The notes beneath the pieces are model-generated. The model searched no databases. It was not told where the DNA came from and saw only the letters and a list, made by a program, of their open reading frames with translations. Below, piece by piece: positions 1 to 14,653 of a DNA stretch of 64,000 bases. Made by a program: the position numbers and the translations under genes. The first letter of the stretch is position 1, and every line of letters starts with the position of its first letter. Origin of the DNA: an uncultured Gammaproteobacteria bacterium (lineage in GTDB: Bacteria; Patescibacteriota; Patescibacteriia; S139-126); assembly GCA_964620905.1 (NCBI GenBank), contig CAZUKA010000002.1, positions 25,496 through 89,495 of the forward strand. Reading direction: 5' to 3'.

Positions 1-995
1 TAGCAGGTATGAATTGGGTTCGAGGAATTGAATTAAAGGATGAGGTTTTAAATTTACCACCCTTACCCAACATAAAAAGTGGCCAAGTGCGTCAAGTCGA
101 TATTTTGCCAGACTATATTAAACATATTTTATCTTTTATTGATGTTAAACAGATTAAACCGTTTAAAGTTGTAGTTGATGCTGGTAATGGTATGGCTGGT
201 AAAATTGTGCCGTTGTTGGCAAAACATCTACCAATTGAGATTGTACCATTGAATTTTGATCTGGATGGCAGTTTTCCGGCTCATCCTTCAAATCCGCTTT
301 TACCGGAAAGTCAAAAGGAGATAAGCAAAAAAACAGTTGCCACCGAAGCGGATTTTGGTGTTATTTTTGATGGCGATACTGATCGACTGTTTTTTGTTGA
401 TGAGCAAGGAAAATTTATTAGAGCCGATGTCACTTTATTATTATTGGCTAAAATGTTTTTAACTAGAGAACCAGGGGCAGGTATAGTTTATAATGTAATA
501 TGTTCAAAAATAGTACCAGAGAAAATTTTAGAATGGGGGGGGCGACCTATAAAATCACCAGCAGGGTACATTAATATTGCCAATAACATGCGTTCCCAAC
601 AAGGAATAATGGGAGGAGAGCTGTCTGCTCATTATTCTTTTCGAGATAATGCTTATAGTGATTCCGGTTTTATTGCTTGGTTAATTTTATTGCAACTTTT
701 ATCTGAATATAATCAGCCTTTATCGGAAATTGTTAAACCTTTTTATAAGTATGCTAAAAACGCAGAAATTAATTTGGCTGTTAGTGATAGTGAGGAAAAA
801 ATTGAAGCCATAAAAAAATATTTTGTTGATGGTCGTCAAGATTTTACTGACGGTGTAACAGTAGAATATGCTGATTGGTGGGTTAATGTTCGACCGTCAA
901 ATACCGAACCGCTTTTACGGGTAACCGTGGAAGCAAACAATGAAGATTTACTGCGGAGAAAATCAGATTTAGTTTTAAAGATAATTGCCGGTTAA
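1..995 (+). CDS. phosphohexomutase family protein (GlmM/ManB-like), 5'-truncated by window edge
   Basis: Reading frame is open to window start. The translated region begins in domain II (KVVVDAGNGMAG) and the catalytic domain I is missing, so the N-terminus lies upstream. Domain II-IV motifs (FGVIFDGDTDR, C-terminal TEPLLRV) are present. Confidence 0.7.
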   Translation, partial: AGMNWVRGIELKDEVLNLPPLPNIKSGQVRQVDILPDYIKHILSFIDVKQIKPFKVVVDAGNGMAGKIVPLLAKHLPIEIVPLNFDLDGSFPAHPSNPLLPESQKEISKKTVATEADFGVIFDGDTDRLFFVDEQGKFIRADVTLLLLAKMFLTREPGAGIVYNVICSKIVPEKILEWGGRPIKSPAGYINIANNMRSQQGIMGGELSAHYSFRDNAYSDSGFIAWLILLQLLSEYNQPLSEIVKPFYKYAKNAEINLAVSDSEEKIEAIKKYFVDGRQDFTDGVTVEYADWWVNVRPSNTEPLLRVTVEANNEDLLRRKSDLVLKIIAG

Positions 996-10261: not shown

Positions 10262-10804
10262 TTGAGTTCTTTTAAAAAAAATATTCCCAATTTATTGAGT
10301 TTATCTCGTATTTTTCCTTTTACACTATTACTAGTTTATGTTATCACTCTGGGTGATAAATGGTTATTTTCTTTGGTGGCAGTTTTTGCTTCGTTAACTG
10401 ATTGGCTTGATGGTTATTTGGCCAGACGTTGGCAAGTGGTTTCCCAATTAGGTATTATTTTAGATCCTATTGCCGATAAAGTTATTATTGGCGCTGGTGT
10501 TATTGCCTTATATGTTTTGGCTTATGTACCTTTGTGGTTGTTGCTAACCATTATTGTCAAAGATTTTTTTATATTGTTGGGAGGGTTGTTACTAACCTAT
10601 AAGTACACAATCGAAATTCCGCCGTCCAATTGGTCGGGAAAATCTGCAACCGTCATAATCACTATTACCTTGTTTTTACATTTTTATTTTTCTAGTGATG
10701 ATTTATTAGTTTTTCAGTTAATGACAGTTCTAAGTGTAGTAGTAGTTATATTCAATTATTCTCAAAGATTTTTCATTTTGAAGAATCATTTGTCAGGGGT
10801 CTAA
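10262..10804 (+). CDS. CDP-alcohol phosphatidyltransferase family protein
   Basis: DGYLARRW...LDPIADK signature and multiple TM helices. TTG start 7 nt after a GGAGG RBS. Confidence 0.75.
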   Translation: MSSFKKNIPNLLSLSRIFPFTLLLVYVITLGDKWLFSLVAVFASLTDWLDGYLARRWQVVSQLGIILDPIADKVIIGAGVIALYVLAYVPLWLLLTIIVKDFFILLGGLLLTYKYTIEIPPSNWSGKSATVIITITLFLHFYFSSDDLLVFQLMTVLSVVVVIFNYSQRFFILKNHLSGV

Positions 10805-10824
10805 ATTTAGACCTCTTTTTATTA

Positions 10825-10853
10825 TTGACAAATTGGCAAAAAAGGTGTATAAT
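10825..10853 (+). promoter_or_regulatory. consensus sigma70-type promoter (TTGACA-17 bp-TATAAT) driving the DGR target gene
   Basis: Perfect -35 TTGACA, 17-nt spacer and perfect -10 TATAAT. An 8-bp inverted repeat (ttggtaaa/tttaccaa) follows in the leader. Confidence 0.7.
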
Positions 10854-10924
10854 GAATGGTTGGTAAAATAAATAATTGTCTTTACCAACAAGTACTTTAT
10901 CAAAAATAAAGAAAGGAACTGCTC

Positions 10925-11638
10925 ATGAAAAAGCATGAGACATCGGTCCTGACCGCTGGTCAGATGAAAGAGCTTTCCAGTGCTATATTGGAAGCAATCC
11001 CTGCCAATTTACCAACCAGTACTGCCCAGTACTGGATAGGCAACAAAAAAAAGTTGCAAAAAATTTTACGTGAAGCACTTGGCGTTCAACCTTTTTTTGA
11101 TTATCTTGCCGACTGGCAAGATTTCTACCGGGATGTGTTTAACCTGGAGTTTGATTTTTCTGAAATCTCTATTCCTGATAAAAAATCAGGTTTTGACAGA
11201 TTAATAATTGTTGCTCCCGGCATGACACCCCAAGTCTTATTCAATAAATGTTCCGAGTTGTTTTCAACTTGGAAATACACTGATAAATCTTTGGATGAGG
11301 TAATAACCTCTGACCGCACTTCTGCAAACGGCGCTTATGCCGTCTGGTTCCGCGATAGAGTGGAAGCAGATGAGGAGATGAAAAACATCTACGCCAATCA
11401 GCTTAAAAAGCAAAAAGTAATCAGCATTACCTTAGAAGAACGTCTCTTAATGGAACTTAAGTTCTATCAAGAGACTGGGAAACATTTAGATGTTTCCAAT
11501 ATTACTTTATGTGCAGGTTCTCGCCATGACGGCGGCAACGTCCCGGGCGTCGACTGGCTCGATAGTGAGCTCGAGGTCAGCTGGTATGACCCTGACAATC
11601 AGCACGACGATCTGCGTTGTCGTGTAGCAGTGGTCTAA
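10925..11638 (+). CDS. DGR variable (target) protein, 237 aa, VR in the C-terminal 38 codons
   Basis: The last ~118 nt of the CDS are a GC-rich repeat of the TR. Variable positions fall in codons corresponding to TR AAC/AAT/AAG/GAC. C-terminus WYDPDNQHDDLRCRVAVV. Confidence 0.85.
   Translation: MKKHETSVLTAGQMKELSSAILEAIPANLPTSTAQYWIGNKKKLQKILREALGVQPFFDYLADWQDFYRDVFNLEFDFSEISIPDKKSGFDRLIIVAPGMTPQVLFNKCSELFSTWKYTDKSLDEVITSDRTSANGAYAVWFRDRVEADEEMKNIYANQLKKQKVISITLEERLLMELKFYQETGKHLDVSNITLCAGSRHDGGNVPGVDWLDSELEVSWYDPDNQHDDLRCRVAVV
11515..11632 (+). repeat. DGR variable repeat (VR)
   Basis: Aligned by eye to 11900-12017. It differs only where the TR has A. Confidence 0.85.
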
Positions 11639-11658
11639 CTCTTTTCTTTTCTCTCTTT

Positions 11659-11690
11659 AACCCTTTCATAAAAATGAAAGGGTTTTAATT
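11659..11690 (+). terminator. hairpin/terminator ~25 nt downstream of VR (aaccctttcat-aaaaa-tgaaagggtt + T-rich)
   Basis: 10-bp perfect stem. The position matches the stem-loop commonly found downstream of DGR VRs. Confidence 0.6.
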
Positions 11691-11899
11691 TATGTAAAAA
11701 TATTTTATATTGTTTAAGGCTGTAAAATCGATTTCGCAGATGCGGGATAACGATTTGCCGTTTTTTTTAGACACTGCTTGTCTGTTTTTGATAAAGATGT
11801 ATAAGATACTACTTTATAAAAAAAGTCCGAACTCGCGTCGGTTAACTCAGATAACTTTGTTAAAGGTTGTCGGTGTAAGGGATGAAAACAGGCAAAATA

Positions 11900-12017
11900 A
11901 GGTTCTCGCAATGACGACGACAACGTCCCGAACGTCAACTGGAACGATAGTAAGCTCAAGGTCAACTGGTATAACCCTGACAATCAGAACGACAATCTGC
12001 GTTGTCGTGTAGAAGTG
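11900..12017 (+). repeat. DGR template repeat (TR), non-coding, Asn-codon (AAC) rich
   Basis: Translated in the VR frame it reads RNDDDNVPNVNWNDSKLKVNWYNPDNQNDNLRCRV. 7 AAC codons, 6 of them diversified in the VR. Confidence 0.85.
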
Positions 12018-12023
12018 TCTTTT

Positions 12024-12050
12024 AAACCCGCTCTTTATTGGAGCGGGTTT
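12024..12050 (+). other. GC-rich hairpin immediately 3' of TR (aaacccgctc-tttattg-gagcgggttt)
   Basis: 10-bp stem. It overlaps the stop of the minus-strand Avd-like ORF. Confidence 0.5.
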
Positions 12051-12390
12051 ATTTATAAAGAGATTTTATCCAACCATTAGTCATTTTTGACATTTCTTGC
12101 AAAATGGAGATTAATTCTAGATATTGTTTTTGGGAAATAATTGTTAGTTCTTGGCAAATTCTTAGTAATCGTTTTGTAATTTCAATATTAATTCGTGATT
12201 TTTCTAAAATATTAATCTTGGTTGATTTGTTTGACAGAGCGGCTTCAATCAGTAGAGTAATAATGTTTAAACATATGTTTTCAATTTTAAGAAAAATTCC
12301 CAACTTATCTTTTTTTGCTAGTCTGGATGAAATTTGGTATATTTTTTTATATAATTCAAAACTTCTATGTACCAACGGCACATTTTGCAA
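12049..12390 (-). CDS. Avd-like accessory variability determinant (four-helix-bundle protein, 23S-rRNA-IVS protein family)
   Basis: 113 aa amphipathic helical protein. Pattern (HRSFELYKKIYQIS...IENICLNIITLLIEAALSNKS...LEKSRINIEITKRLLRICQEL...MTNGWIKSLYK) matches the PF05635/TIGR02436 family that includes DGR Avd. It is encoded antiparallel to TR and RT. The start is TTG or GTG; there is no ATG. Confidence 0.65.
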   Translation of the reverse strand: MQNVPLVHRSFELYKKIYQISSRLAKKDKLGIFLKIENICLNIITLLIEAALSNKSTKINILEKSRINIEITKRLLRICQELTIISQKQYLELISILQEMSKMTNGWIKSLYK

Positions 12391-13432
12391 AAACTCGTCG
12401 GGGGGGGGGATTAAAGGACATAATTTATTTGAGCAAATTATTAGTTTAGATAATTTGTTTTGCGCCTGGCGCGAGTTTCAGTGCGGAAAAATGAAAAAAC
12501 CCGATGTGCGTGAGTTTGCTTTTGCTTTGGAAGATAATATTTTTTCCTTGCACGACGAATTAAAAAATAAAACTTACCGACACTCTCATTATACTTCATT
12601 TTATGTATCTGACCCAAAGCTAAGGCATATTCATAAGGCCTGTGTCAGGGACAGGGTATTGCACCATGCGATATTTAGAGTTTTATATCCTGTGTTTGAT
12701 AAGTCATTTATTTTTGATTCTTATTCCTGTCGGTTAAAAAAAGGCACGCACAGGGCAGTTGATAGGTTAGAGAGATTTTGCCTTATGGTCAGTCAGAATA
12801 ATAATTACAACTTTTACTATCTAAAATGTGATATTAAGAAATTTTTTGTTTCGGTTGATCAGGAGATTTTAGTTTGTCTTATCAAGAAAAAAATTGTTGA
12901 TCCAGACGCACTCTGGTTGATACAAGAAATTACTAATAGTTTTCAGACTAGCAATAACAAAGGATTACCGTTGGGTAATGTCACTAGCCAGCTTTTAGCT
13001 AACATTTATTTAAACAAACTTGATCAGTTTATAAAACATCAGCTAAAGGCTAAATATTATCTCAGATATTGCGATGATTTTTTGCTATTATCACCTGATA
13101 AAAATTTATTGGTTGATTATGTCGGGTTGATTGATGATTTTTTACAGAACCATTTAAAACTCAATCTCCATCCTGACAAAATAATCATAAAAAAATACAA
13201 CCAGGGAATTGACTGGTTGGGCTATGTGGTTTTGCCGCATTACCGGCTACTGCGCACCAAAACCAGGCACAGGATTATTGAGCGGATTAAGAATAAACAA
13301 AGAGATTTTAAGTCAGGAGTTGTCAGTCAAGAGCATTTTTGCCAGTCAGTCCAGTCGTATCTGGGAGTGCTTGAGCATTGTTCCGGGTATAAAATAGAGC
13401 GAGAGATGCTGCGCCTTGTGAGTAATGATTAG
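12367..13432 (+). CDS. DGR-type reverse transcriptase (frame interrupted by the G10 tract at 12400-12409 in this assembly)
   Basis: RT motifs: CRLKKGTHRAV (motif 2), YYLKCDIKKFF (motif 3/A), GLPLGNVTSQLLANIY (motif 4 with DGR-specific SQ), RYCDDFLLL (motif 5/C, YxDD), LGYVV (motif 6). The co-linear frame is open from 12104 but its first ATG is at 12491, inside the conserved N-terminal region. The ATG at 12367 is in frame only if the G-run is 9 rather than 10. Confidence 0.85.
12400..12409. repeat. G10 homopolymer at the 5' end of the RT gene / 5' UTR of the Avd-like gene
   Basis: Ten consecutive G in a ~35 % GC genome. It sits 31 nt after the ATG at 12367 and 10 nt upstream of the minus-strand Avd-like start. 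Confidence 0.8.
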
Positions 13433-13503
13433 ATTTTATTGACAAGGTTGGTATTTTTTATTAAACTTGGAAAAATATTTGTACCTAAAAAAATGGAGAG
13501 AAA

Positions 13504-13806
13504 ATGAACAATTTAGAAAAATTGATTTTTAAGATCAATCAACAGCAGACGGTTTTTAAAATAGAGCATGAACAAATAACCAATAGTCTTATATTGACTA
13601 TTAGTGTTAATAAAACCGACAAAGAAGATTTAAAAAAATTACTCAAAAAAATAAGAAAGAATTACCAGTGTGAAAATCTCACCGGCACAAATGAGCCAAC
13701 CTCACCTGTTTTTGGTCAAAATACCAATCTAGCTATTTACAGTTTAATTTTTCATTCGCAAAAAGAAATAGAAAAAGTCATTAAATTTATCGGGACTCAT
13801 TGTTGA
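13504..13806 (+). CDS. hypothetical protein (100 aa)
   Basis: ORF with a GGAGAG RBS and an upstream TTGACA box, followed by the hairpin gggactcattgttgagtccc. Confidence 0.45.
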   Translation: MNNLEKLIFKINQQQTVFKIEHEQITNSLILTISVNKTDKEDLKKLLKKIRKNYQCENLTGTNEPTSPVFGQNTNLAIYSLIFHSQKEIEKVIKFIGTHC

Positions 13807-13825
13807 GTCCCGTTTCGATGTGTTG

Positions 13826-13860
13826 GAAATAAAATAAAAAAGACACTATATTACTGTCTT
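13826..13860 (-). terminator. rho-independent terminator for the ychF-yfiH minus-strand unit
   Basis: Hairpin agacactatattactgtct preceded on plus by an A-run (T-run on minus). Confidence 0.55.
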
Positions 13861-13897
13861 ACATAGTGTTGTTTTTTTTCCGACTTAGTTTTTTATT

Positions 13898-14653
13898 TTA
13901 TCTATCAAACCCAATAATAGAAGCAAATCTTCCTTGATCTTTTAAACCAGCTTTTTTATCACGATAGTGAGAAAAAAATTTTTTATCATGGCCGGTACAA
14001 ATATTACTTGTGAATAAATTCTGTGGTTGAATTCCGGATGCTAATAATTGTTTGGTAATATATTTTATATTATCAATATGATATAAACCTGATTGATCTT
14101 GCTTTAAATAAGGTTGCCAGTTTTCCTTTGTTAAAACTTCATGATCAGGGTAAGCATAACAACAATCATGTAGGGCCGGACCAATACCAATTAGTAGATT
14201 CATCGGATCAGAATGAAAATTATTTTTGAACGCATCAATAACTTTGATAGGTAAAGCAAGGTCGGTATTACGCCAACCGCAATGAGCTAAGCCCACTGCT
14301 TTATAAATTGGATCAAATATTAATAGCGAAGCACAGTCGGCAACGATATGAAATATAAATAAATTTGGTTGATTGGTAATTAGGGCGTCAGCTTTAAGTT
14401 TATAGTCATTATTTAAAATACTACCATCAGCTTCATTGGTAGTTACAATTAAAATTTTATCATTGTGTTCAAGTTGTGTTGTTACAACTTGCGAGGGTTT
14501 AATATTATACAATTTTAGAAAATTGATCCGATTATTCTGTACAGTCCTGGTCTTACCCCAGCGGAAAGACATATTACCTTCATTGACTGTTGAAAAGGCA
14601 TGAATAAATTTAGTCAGTTTATTCAATTCTTTTATTTGGTAAAGCATAATCAA
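13898..14653 (-). CDS. YfiH/PgeF family (laccase-domain, DUF152) protein
   Basis: Conserved HCGWRN motif and 251-aa length typical of the family. Confidence 0.75.
   Translation of the reverse strand: MIMLYQIKELNKLTKFIHAFSTVNEGNMSFRWGKTRTVQNNRINFLKLYNIKPSQVVTTQLEHNDKILIVTTNEADGSILNNDYKLKADALITNQPNLFIFHIVADCASLLIFDPIYKAVGLAHCGWRNTDLALPIKVIDAFKNNFHSDPMNLLIGIGPALHDCCYAYPDHEVLTKENWQPYLKQDQSGLYHIDNIKYITKQLLASGIQPQNLFTSNICTGHDKKFFSHYRDKKAGLKDQGRFASIIGFDR

What the first reader, a model, noticed from the sequence alone, without database searches (positions are those of the whole stretch)
12049..12390. Avd-like four-helix-bundle gene encoded antiparallel to TR and RT, head-to-head with the RT start
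The 113-aa minus-strand ORF has the helical periodicity and C-terminal signature (…EMSKMTNGWIKSLYK) of the 23S-rRNA-IVS/Avd family. It is transcribed in the opposite direction to TR and RT, starts with TTG/GTG, and would overlap the RT ATG by ~24 nt. The plus-strand frame antisense to it (12104-12366) is also open but reads as low-complexity junk. Canonical DGRs place avd co-directionally upstream of the TR. A divergent avd implies separate, possibly co-regulated promoters in the 12.37-12.42 kb overlap zone around the G10 tract.
Basis: partly seen in the sequence, partly recalled or inferred. Interest (0 to 1): 0.6.

Follow-up and report, generated by a model that had tools for sequence, protein, structure and literature searches.

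The report
Reverse-facing DGR helper gene with slippery switch
The minus-strand ORF is a genuine Avd helper gene of a diversity-generating retroelement, and its backwards orientation is already the documented norm in candidate-phyla-radiation bacteria; what looks new is a hypervariable run of G's where the starts of avd and the reverse transcriptase overlap, which in this window puts both genes out of frame.

Summary
Observation confirmed. The ORF 12049-12390 (-) matches Pfam bAvd above threshold, is predicted as a confident four-helix bundle like Bordetella Avd, and has conserved homologues. It lies between the TR (11900-12017) and the RT, on the opposite strand.

The orientation is not novel. 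Wu et al. 2018 (PMC5758913) define it as architecture B3, TR-(avd)-RT, found in 90% of their CPR DGRs. All 113 related loci I could score have it. The plus-strand frame antisense to avd is open by chance, in 1 of 82 relatives.

The RT ATG at 12367 is out of frame with the RT core because of the G10 tract (12400-12409). Avd probably starts at ATG 12421, beyond the tract, not at TTG/GTG.

The two ATG-led N-termini overlap antisense by 55 nt, with the tract in the middle. A G6-G14 tract is present in 106 of 114 relatives. It is often the only difference across 3-5 kb of otherwise identical DNA. It sets the frame of both genes together: 27% in frame, 51% +1, 22% +2. Codon usage shows both extensions are kept open. 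The five tract-less variants that could be scored are all in frame.

This looks like a slippage switch on RT and Avd, and I found no description of it. Switching within a population is untested.

The parts
10925..11638 (+). DGR target gene (237 aa, no family match), with the VR at its 3' end
   Evidence: ORF list. No Pfam or NCBIfam family. The VR/TR repeat ends 6 nt before the stop.
11515..11632 (+). Variable repeat (VR)
   Evidence: 118-nt direct repeat of the TR at 87% identity. All 15 mismatches are at TR adenines.
11706..11711 (+). -10-like box (TATATT) ahead of the TR leader; presumed promoter of the TR RNA
   Evidence: It aligns with a conserved TATAAT/TAAAAT box a few nt upstream of the near-invariant GGCT in 63 loci (alignment A3). 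Function is inferred.
11718..11899 (+). Conserved structured non-coding leader directly 5' of the TR
   Evidence: Alignment A3 of 63 loci. RNAalifold gives 35 pairs, 28 with compensatory changes, in three helices. No Rfam 15 match.
11900..12017 (+). Template repeat (TR)
   Evidence: In 63 relatives the adenine-bearing copy lies 21-85 nt from the avd stop, on the RT-sense strand.
12024..12050 (.). GC-rich hairpin followed by a T-run, between the TR and the avd stop; probable two-way terminator for the TR RNA and the avd mRNA
   Evidence: Stem AAACCCGCTC/GAGCGGGTTT. An equivalent hairpin with a different sequence is found in 59 of 63 loci (z < -2, median dG -20.5 kcal/mol). Rfam leader models align to it only as a terminator stem.
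12049..12390 (-). avd core ORF (113 aa as listed, starting at TTG 12390; other possible starts GTG 12381 and TTG 12375)
12391..12421 (-). Conserved avd N-terminal extension starting at ATG 12421-12419 (MSFNPPP...). It is +1 out of frame with the avd core at C10 and in frame at C9.
   Evidence: Homologue P0001 is called as MPSITPPPDDFLCNVPLVH. Tract-less relatives are in frame from the homologous ATG.
12400..12409 (.). G10/C10 homopolymer tract in the middle of the avd/RT 5' overlap
   Evidence: It is one of only two G/C runs of 7 or more in the 64 kb window. A tract of G6-G14 is present in 106 of 114 related loci. Its length differs between elements that are otherwise identical.
12367..12414 (+). 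RT leader ORF from the conserved ATG (MYQRHILQKLVGGGD*). It would fuse to the RT core at G9.
   Evidence: L001 with G9 reads MHERHLSQKLIGGGIKGHNLFEE.
12410..13432 (+). DGR reverse transcriptase core (340 aa; LGNVTSQ and YCDD motifs)
   Evidence: RVT_1 at 74 bits. Best PDB match is Bordetella bRT 8ub7_A, E = 4e-38, with query residue 4 aligned to bRT residue 6. Translation.
12327..12355 (+). Promoter-like site (ATGAAA-17-TATAAT) ending 12 nt before RT ATG 12367, inside the avd codons for F-E-L-Y-K
   Evidence: Consensus scan, 10 of 12 matches. A similar TATAAT/TAAAAT box sits at the same place in relatives (sequences). Function is inferred.

Best explanation
The minus-strand ORF is a genuine accessory variability determinant (Avd) of a chromosomal DGR of the candidate-phyla-radiation (Patescibacteria) type. 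The layout is: target/VR, then structured leader + TR + terminator hairpin, then avd on the opposite strand, then RT. This is architecture B3 of Wu et al. 2018.

By homology with the Bordetella phage system, Avd is a basic four-helix-bundle protein that oligomerises and binds the RT and the TR RNA. The complex makes adenine-mutagenised cDNA that replaces the VR.

The reverse orientation is the lineage norm. Here the TR appears to be its own short transcription unit, with a -10 box, a ~180-nt covarying leader, the TR and a terminator. It therefore does not need to be co-transcribed with avd or the RT.

avd and the RT are read divergently, and their true 5' ends overlap antisense by 55 nt. The RT ATG (12367) is the reverse complement of Avd's His8 codon. 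The avd ATG (12421) is the reverse complement of the RT's first conserved His codon. A G/C homopolymer sits between them.

Because of this geometry, any tract length puts both ATG-led ORFs in frame or both out of frame. In this window (G10) both are +1 out of frame. As assembled, the RT has no in-frame start next to its core. Avd can be made only from a weak internal TTG/GTG or by slippage.

Inferred, not shown: the tract is a slippage-driven switch or throttle on DGR activity. It could act by DNA-level phase variation. RNA-polymerase slippage or +1 ribosomal slippage at GGG-G / CCC-C are alternatives.
For: Avd identity:
- Pfam bAvd above threshold.
- Eleven homologues, all carrying PF22296.
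- Model pLDDT 92.8; Foldseek TM 0.85-0.89 to 4dwl and 0.79-0.85 to the Avd chains of the 8ub7-8ube complexes.
- pI 9.8.

DGR context:
- TR/VR pair with 15 of 15 adenine-specific mismatches.
- The RT's best solved relative is Bordetella bRT, E = 4e-38.

Orientation is the norm:
- PMC5758913 Fig. 5 and text.
- 113 of 113 related loci are divergent.
- The TR is on the RT-sense strand next to the avd 3' end in 63 loci.

The TR as its own unit:
- Hairpin after the TR in 59 of 63 loci.
- Covarying leader with 28 of 35 pairs compensated.

Overlap and tract:
- Geometry and frames.
- Tract present in 106 of 114 loci.
- Dereplicated frame states: 22 in frame, 42 at +1, 18 at +2.
- 11 of 18 near-identical clusters contain different tract lengths.
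- In four pairs the tract is the only difference across 3.3-5.3 kb; a fifth pair has one additional SNP.
- Antisense-stop codons (TTA/CTA/TCA) are used 1 time in 136 in the overlap against 676 in 1711 in the rest of avd (p = 9e-27). On the RT side the figures are 0 in 58 against 846 in 2567 (p = 1.6e-10).
- All five scorable tract-less variants have both ATGs in frame.
- The window's G10 is reproduced in two independent Logan assemblies.
Against: - No transcript, protein or read-level data exist, so transcription starts, the real start codons and switching within a population are all inferred.
- NCBIfam's Avd equivalog and PF05635/TIGR02436 score below their curated cut-offs, so this is a divergent Avd subfamily.
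- The Avd profile finds no PDB sequence.
- Only 27% of elements are in frame and +1 is over-represented. My chi-square on the counts is about 12, p about 0.002. That fits a programmed-recoding model as well as a simple ON/OFF switch.
- Homopolymer length calls in metagenome assemblies can be wrong or can reflect mixed populations.
- 41 of 60 out-of-frame loci do have a TTG/GTG/ATG after the tract in the avd frame, so Avd may be less dependent on the tract than the RT is.
- The avd promoter was not detected by the consensus scan.
Confidence: 0.85

Rival explanations
1. The tract is not a DNA-level ON/OFF switch but a programmed recoding site. RNA polymerase stutters on the G/C run, or ribosomes slip +1 on GGG-G (RT) and CCC-C (Avd, after a stalling Pro-Pro-Pro). 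The '+1' genomic state would then be the normal low-expression state of both proteins.
For: The +1 state is the commonest: 42 of 82 dereplicated loci, including this window in three assemblies. In +1 loci the ATG frame stops immediately after the tract at the conserved TTAA (peptides). Out-of-frame elements show no decay of either ORF. From general knowledge, CCC-C and GGG-G are classical +1 shift-prone sites.
Against: All three frame states occur, and they interconvert between samples of the same element. A fixed recoding signal would not need that. There is no conserved stimulatory element. 22% of loci are in the +2 state, which needs a different shift. Tract-less variants are simply in frame.
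Confidence: 0.3
2. The tract-length differences are sequencing or assembly artefacts at a poly-G run. The real sequence is G9 and both genes are always in frame.
For: Homopolymers are error-prone, and some MAGs come from long-read data. In the GTDB set, 8 of 15 G9 loci are in frame.
Against: G10 was recovered identically in the window and in two independent run-level assemblies. Lengths range from 6 to 14. There are 41 A/T runs of 7 or more in 41 kb of the same pairwise alignments, and none differ. In the metagenome set most G9 loci (21 of 29) are +1 and all 6 G8 loci are in frame, so no single 'true' length fits.
Confidence: 0.08
3. The tract is a non-coding regulatory element (promoter spacer, UTR or Shine-Dalgarno-like G-run) between the true starts. 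Avd would start at TTG/GTG (12390/12381), and the RT at a non-canonical codon just after the tract.
For: TTG at Avd residue 6 is present in 41 of 82 loci and GTG at residue 4 or 7 in 33. A G-run can pair with the anti-SD. Tract length would then be free to vary.
Against: There is no conserved canonical start between the tract and the RT core; the codons there are ATT, CTT or GTT. Strong avoidance of antisense-stop codons keeps both ATG-led extensions open. Both ATGs are retained, with open frames up to the tract, in 94% or more of loci. Tract-less relatives are in frame from the same ATGs. 19 of 60 out-of-frame loci have no ATG/GTG/TTG for avd after the tract.
Confidence: 0.07
4. The minus-strand ORF is spurious or a generic 23S-rRNA-IVS-type four-helix bundle unrelated to the DGR. 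The plus-strand 442-aa ORF (12104-13432) would be the real gene, an RT with a long N-terminal extension. This is how gene callers annotated the twin contigs.
For: The 442-aa plus ORF is open and was called as a gene in L051 and L052. PF05635-family structures 2gsc and 2rld are among the best fold matches.
Against: The plus frame is open in only 1 of 82 relatives. Substitutions against L001 fall 37/12/52 on avd codon positions 1/2/3, which puts 37 on position 2 of the plus frame. Avd homologues sit next to a DGR RT in every locus. The bAvd profile scores higher than the IVS profile.
Confidence: 0.02

Closest known systems
CPR-type DGR cassette, architecture B3 'TR-(avd)-RT' (Wu, Gingery, Zimmerly et al., NAR 2018; PMC5758913)
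   Same: Same order and orientation: target/VR, TR, avd on the reverse strand, RT. Same host group: every related locus is from a Patescibacteria/CPR MAG. That paper states that B3 makes up 90% of its CPR set.
   Different: Nothing differs in architecture. The searchable text of that paper does not contain 'start codon', 'promoter' or 'antisense', and its two uses of 'overlap' concern other things. So I found no mention of the avd/RT 5' overlap, the G/C tract, the TR leader or the TR terminator.
Bordetella phage BPP-1 DGR (avd-TR-brt; structures 4dwl, 8ub7)
   Same: Avd fold (TM 0.85-0.89). RT homology (E = 4e-38). Adenine-specific TR-to-VR differences. Presumably the same RT-Avd-RNA mutagenic retrohoming mechanism.
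   Different: In BPP-1, avd is co-directional and upstream of the TR, and the RNA element needed for priming lies 3' of the TR, before brt (general knowledge). Here avd is antisense between the TR and the RT. The region 3' of the TR is only a terminator hairpin, and the conserved structured RNA is 5' of the TR. Both proteins carry N-terminal extensions that overlap across a homopolymer. Avd sequence identity is only about 16%.
23S rRNA intervening-sequence protein / four-helix-bundle family (PF05635, TIGR02436; structures 2gsc, 2rld)
   Same: Same fold; these are the top Foldseek hits, at TM about 0.9.
   Different: Scores fall below both curated cut-offs. The gene is always next to a DGR RT and TR, not in an rRNA intervening sequence.
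Homopolymeric contingency loci (poly-G/C phase variation in Campylobacter, Neisseria, Haemophilus, Bordetella)
   Same: A G6-G14 run near the 5' end of a coding region. Its length differs among otherwise identical sequences, each step changes the reading frame, and the ORFs stay intact in OFF states.
   Different: One tract is shared by two antisense-overlapping genes and shifts both together. The controlled function is a targeted hypermutation machine rather than a surface structure. Reversible switching within a population is not demonstrated here.

Membership tests
Avd / bAvd (PF22296) | Profile match above the curated threshold | tested here: met
   PF22296 at 48.7 bits against a cut-off of 40, covering residues 10-110 of 113. 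All 11 homologues carry PF22296.
Avd / bAvd (PF22296) | NCBIfam equivalog NF033474 (DivGenRetAVD) above its cut-off | tested here: not met
   49.2 bits against a cut-off of 80, although E = 5e-13 over the full length. This is a divergent subfamily, not an equivalog-level match.
Avd / bAvd (PF22296) | Four-helix-bundle fold superimposable on Bordetella Avd | tested here: met
   pLDDT 92.8, with helices at 5-22, 26-52, 55-81 and 87-112. 4dwl at TM 0.85-0.89 and rmsd 1.6-2.0 A; Avd chains of 8ub7 also match.
Avd / bAvd (PF22296) | Encoded next to a DGR reverse transcriptase and a TR | tested here: met
   The RT core starts 20 nt from the listed avd start, and the TR ends 31 nt from the avd stop. 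The same holds in all related loci.
Avd / bAvd (PF22296) | Basic homo-oligomer (pentamer) that binds the RT and nucleic acid | not testable with these tools
   Only the pI of 9.8 (19 K+R against 9 D+E) could be computed. Oligomer state and binding need experiments or a complex prediction.
Diversity-generating retroelement | TR/VR pair whose differences are confined to TR adenines, with the VR at the 3' end of an ORF | tested here: met
   118 nt, with 15 of 15 mismatches at TR adenines. The VR ends 6 nt before the target stop.
Diversity-generating retroelement | RT of the DGR clade | tested here: met
   The best solved relative is Bordetella bRT 8ub7_A (E = 4e-38), ahead of group II intron RTs (8e-17). 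The translation contains LGNVTSQ and YCDD. No DGR-specific RT profile was available, and no phylogeny was done.
DGR architecture B3 (Wu et al. 2018) | Core order TR-(avd)-RT with avd on the reverse strand | tested here: met
   TR 11900-12017 (+), avd 12049-12390 (-), RT 12410-13432 (+). Definition in PMC5758913.
23S rRNA IVS protein family (PF05635 / TIGR02436) | Profile match above the curated threshold | tested here: not met
   PF05635 at 30.7 against 33.8; TIGR02436 at 22.2 against 24.
Homopolymer contingency locus (phase variation) | Long mononucleotide run inside a coding region, rare elsewhere in the genome | tested here: met
   G10 at 12400-12409. There are only two G/C runs of 7 or more in the 64 kb window at 34% GC. 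In 570 kb of related loci there are 123 such runs, essentially one per locus. Both ATG-led ORFs cross the tract.
Homopolymer contingency locus (phase variation) | Tract-length polymorphism among otherwise identical sequences, changing the reading frame | tested here: met
   11 of 18 near-identical clusters carry two or three lengths. In four pairs the tract is the only difference in 3.3-5.3 kb; a fifth pair has one additional SNP. In-frame and out-of-frame alleles of the same element are seen in five clusters.
Homopolymer contingency locus (phase variation) | High-frequency reversible switching within a clonal population, with an expression phenotype | not testable with these tools
   This needs read-level allele counts, cultures or reporters. 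None were available.

The most novel reading that the evidence does not exclude
CPR-type DGRs carry a built-in stochastic switch that I did not find described. It is a hypermutable G/C homopolymer placed exactly in the codon-aligned antisense overlap of the avd and RT N-termini. A single slippage event turns both proteins of the mutagenesis machine on or off together, or throttles them through transcriptional or ribosomal slippage. Targeted hypermutation would then itself be a phase-variable, bet-hedged trait. In this window the element sits in the '+1' (off or low) state. The probability given covers both that the switch is functional and that it is undescribed. The key CPR DGR paper (Paul et al. 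2017) was not held, so I could not check it.
Probability: 0.5. Interest if true: 0.75.

Novelty: new member of a known kind. Interest (0 to 1): 0.45.

Why it matters
As stated, the finding is a routine member of a published class: a reverse-oriented avd is what CPR DGRs normally have. Its practical value is for annotation. In these elements the RT and avd starts are routinely mis-called. Here a 442-aa RT with a junk N-terminus was called in the twin contigs, and truncated Avds starting at an internal Met were called elsewhere.

The overlap zone matters more. If the G/C tract really gates RT and Avd, DGR activity in a vast, uncultured part of the bacterial tree would be stochastic and heritable-but-reversible. 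That would explain how cells limit the cost of a mutator. It also gives a simple, testable predictor: tract length modulo 3 should indicate which natural populations are actively diversifying their target proteins.

The separate TR transcription unit, with its covarying 5' leader, suggests that template recognition in these DGRs is organised differently from the Bordetella paradigm.

Tried and rejected
- Plus-strand coding of 12104-12366: rejected. The frame is open in 1 of 82 relatives, and the codon-position substitution pattern favours avd.
- Rfam search of 10500-14000 at E <= 1: only sub-threshold terminator-like hits on the post-TR hairpin. Nothing on the TR leader or the overlap zone.
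- Avd profile against PDB sequences: no hit. Only the fold comparison links it to 4dwl.
- Alternative RT starts. There is no conserved canonical start codon between the tract and the core. In-frame TTG/GTG upstream occur in about 13 of 28 out-of-frame GTDB loci, which is roughly what chance gives (my reading). The ATG inside 'TTAATGG' is in the third frame.
- Sigma-70 consensus scan: a plausible RT promoter, but no avd promoter hit in 12420-12500. Promoter claims are therefore left as inference.
- Literature searches for a homopolymer, slippage or frameshift feature in DGR RT genes, and text searches within Wu 2018, Roux 2021 and Paul 2022: nothing found. Paul et al. 2017 (Nat Microbiol) is not held, so prior description cannot be excluded.
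- Population-level heterogeneity could not be examined because no reads were available. The second structure job, the representative-protein search and the viral collections were not used because the answer did not depend on them.

Full report
**What is at the coordinates**

The window carries a complete DGR.
- A 237-aa target gene (10925-11638, +) ends in a 118-nt variable repeat (VR, 11515-11632).
- The matching template repeat (TR) is at 11900-12017. It is 87% identical to the VR, and all 15 mismatches are at TR adenines.
- A 113-aa ORF lies on the minus strand at 12049-12390, with a TTG start.
- A reverse-transcriptase frame on the plus strand runs to 13432.

**Is it Avd, and which strand codes?**

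The ORF scores 48.7 bits on Pfam bAvd (PF22296, cut-off 40). It scores below the curated cut-offs on PF05635, TIGR02436 and the NCBIfam Avd equivalog.

A database search found 11 homologues at 35-74% identity, all carrying PF22296.

An AlphaFold model built on that alignment is a confident four-helix bundle (pLDDT 92.8). Its best solved neighbours are the IVS-family structures 2gsc and 2rld. Next come Bordetella Avd (4dwl, TM 0.85-0.89) and the Avd chains of the DGR ribonucleoprotein 8ub7. The protein is basic, with pI 9.8.

The plus-strand frame antisense to it is open for 200 nt or more in only 1 of 82 dereplicated relatives, namely this window. Substitutions against the closest relative fall 37/12/52 on avd codon positions 1/2/3. 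That would put 37 changes on the second position of the plus frame. The minus strand is therefore the coding strand. The 442-aa 'RT' that gene callers produced on two twin contigs is an artefact of a chance-open frame.

**Is the orientation unusual?**

No. Wu et al. 2018 (PMC5758913) classify DGR cassettes. They define architecture B3 as TR-(avd)-RT, with parentheses meaning the reverse strand. [quoted passage not shown]

I retrieved 46 related loci from GTDB genomes, essentially all Patescibacteria/CPR MAGs. I retrieved another 80 from metagenomes.
- In all 113 loci where both N-termini could be matched, avd and the RT are divergent.
- In 63 dereplicated loci with enough flank, the adenine-bearing repeat copy lies 21-85 nt beyond the avd stop, on the RT-sense strand.

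The window is thus a typical member of a known class.

**Why a reverse avd is workable here**

The TR looks like its own transcription unit.
- Directly 5' of the TR there is a ~180-nt non-coding element conserved across 63 loci.
- It is preceded by a TATAAT-like box.
- It folds into three helices, with compensatory changes in 28 of 35 predicted pairs.
- It has no Rfam match.
- Directly 3' of the TR, overlapping the avd stop codon, is a GC-rich hairpin with a T-run (12024-12050). An equivalent hairpin with a different sequence exists in 59 of 63 loci.

The TR RNA therefore probably ends before avd, and the hairpin can terminate avd from the other side. This part is inference from conservation. 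No transcript data were available.

**The head-to-head zone**

It reads MYQRHILQKLVGGGD and stops at 12412-12414. The G-run at 12400-12409 has ten G's.

The closest relative, L001 (RT 87% identical, syntenic), has G9. It reads straight through: MHERHLSQKLIGGGIKGHNLFEE.

The RT core begins immediately after the tract. Its residue 4 aligns with residue 6 of Bordetella bRT.

On the other strand there is an equally conserved ATG at 12421-12419. It is the reverse complement of the RT's first conserved His codon. The RT's ATG is in turn the reverse complement of Avd's His8 codon.

The RT-ATG frame is therefore codon-aligned with the Avd core frame, and the Avd-ATG frame is codon-aligned with the RT core frame. 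Any tract length puts both ATGs in frame or neither.
- With nine bases, Avd reads MSFN-PPP-DEFLQNVPLVH… and the RT reads …V-GGG-IKGH….
- With ten, as here, both are +1 out of frame.

**Are those ATGs the real starts?**

Three independent lines say yes.

1. Codon usage. Leu/Ser codons whose reverse complement is a stop (TTA, CTA, TCA) make up 676 of 1711 such codons in the body of avd. In the segment that overlaps the RT leader they make up 1 of 136 (p = 9e-27). On the RT side the figures are 0 of 58 against 846 of 2567 (p = 1.6e-10). Both extensions are being kept open.

2. ATG retention. Both ATGs, with open frames up to the tract, are retained in 94% or more of loci, whatever the current frame state.

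3. Tract-less relatives. Eight loci (six distinct sequences) lack a homopolymer at this position. In five of the six distinct sequences, both genes are in frame from the homologous ATGs. The sixth, L069, has a divergent GC-rich sequence and could not be scored.

One homologue, P0001, was already called with the MPSITPPP… N-terminus. However, 19 of 60 out-of-frame loci have no such codon.

**The tract is hypervariable**

- A G-run of 6-14 is present in 106 of 114 scorable loci.
- It is essentially the only long G/C run in each locus, and one of two in the whole 64-kb window (34% GC).
- Its codon phase differs between loci, so it is the nucleotides that are conserved, not a Gly3/Pro3 motif.
- Among 18 clusters of near-identical elements, 11 contain two or three different lengths.
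- In four pairs the tract is the only difference across 3.3-5.3 kb, and a fifth pair has one additional SNP. None of the 41 A/T runs of 7 or more in those alignments differs.
- After dereplication, 22 elements are in frame, 42 are +1 and 18 are +2. My chi-square against equal thirds is about 12, p about 0.002.
- The window's G10 is reproduced in two independent run-level assemblies.

**Interpretation of the tract**

The pattern matches a contingency locus: a slippage-prone run inside a coding region, polymorphic among identical flanks, flipping the frame, with no decay of the OFF alleles. Here one run is shared by two antisense genes, so it would gate the RT and Avd together.

The excess of +1 states and the TAA that follows the tract in that frame leave room for a recoding model. 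That model would involve RNA-polymerase stuttering, or +1 slippage at GGG-G / CCC-C after a Pro-Pro-Pro stall. I cannot separate the two models without reads, RNA or reporters.

An artefact explanation is unlikely given the reproducibility, the 6-14 range and the stability of the A/T runs. A purely non-coding role is unlikely given the codon-usage test.

I found no description of this feature. The full-text searches and the text of Wu 2018, Roux 2021 and a 2022 review contain nothing. The main CPR DGR paper (Paul et al. 2017) is not held, so novelty is provisional.

**Verdict**

The finding as written is correct in observation and ordinary in meaning. It is a bona fide, divergent-subfamily Avd in the standard CPR (B3) DGR layout.

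Its start codon and the 'RT ATG overlap' need re-reading in the light of the tract. In this window both the RT and the ATG-initiated Avd are one base out of frame.

The part worth further work is the tract itself and, secondarily, the structured TR leader.

Noticed in passing
window 12400-12409 (and the homologous position in L001-L132): A G6-G14 homopolymer lies in the antisense overlap of the avd and RT 5' ends. Its length is the only difference between otherwise identical elements, and it sets the frame of both genes. The window is G10, which is +1 for both.
   Followed up: yes
window 11718-11899 (alignment A3, 63 loci): A conserved ~180-nt non-coding element lies directly 5' of the TR, preceded by a TATAAT-like box (11706-11711). 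It has three helices, and 28 of 35 pairs show compensatory changes. No Rfam 15 family matches. It may be the RT/Avd-recognition domain of the TR RNA in this DGR class.
   Followed up: partly
window 12024-12050: A GC-rich hairpin plus T-run lies immediately 3' of the TR and overlaps the avd stop codon. The structure, but not the sequence, is conserved in 59 of 63 loci. It is a probable bidirectional terminator, so the TR is not co-transcribed with the RT.
   Followed up: partly
window 12104-13432 (+); L051 and L052 444-1772: Gene callers annotate a 442-aa RT whose first ~100 residues are the chance-open antisense of avd. Elsewhere, Avd homologues are called from an internal Met (P0005, P0007-P0009). 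Start-codon annotation of this DGR class is systematically off.
   Followed up: yes
L014/L109, L047, L048, L119, L125/L129: These related DGRs have no homopolymer at the same position. Both the RT and Avd are in frame from the homologous ATGs. They are natural 'locked-on' variants and useful as controls. L069 also lacks a tract, but its sequence there is divergent and GC-rich and it could not be scored.
   Followed up: partly
window 535-542: This is the only other long G/C run in the 64 kb: a G8 inside a 328-aa ORF (9-995, +), read as …EWGGRPIK…. I guessed phosphohexomutase-like from the translation alone. The ORF is in frame as assembled. I did not check whether the length varies in relatives.
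   Followed up: no
window 13504-13806 (+); L001 2828-3130: A 100-aa ORF lies just downstream of the RT, with no family match. It is conserved and syntenic in L001, L051 and L052. Beyond it on the opposite strand are Cu-oxidase_4-family and YchF-like genes. It is unclear whether it belongs to the DGR.
   Followed up: no
L007 and L049: In these two loci the RT match begins only at residue ~170-200 and abuts or overlaps avd. They may be rearranged or decayed cassettes.
   Followed up: no
L043 (CAZFZQ010000028.1): The record is labelled 'uncultured Gammaproteobacteria' but carries the same CPR-type avd/RT/tract cassette. This is probably a mis-binned contig. Horizontal transfer was not examined.
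   Followed up: no
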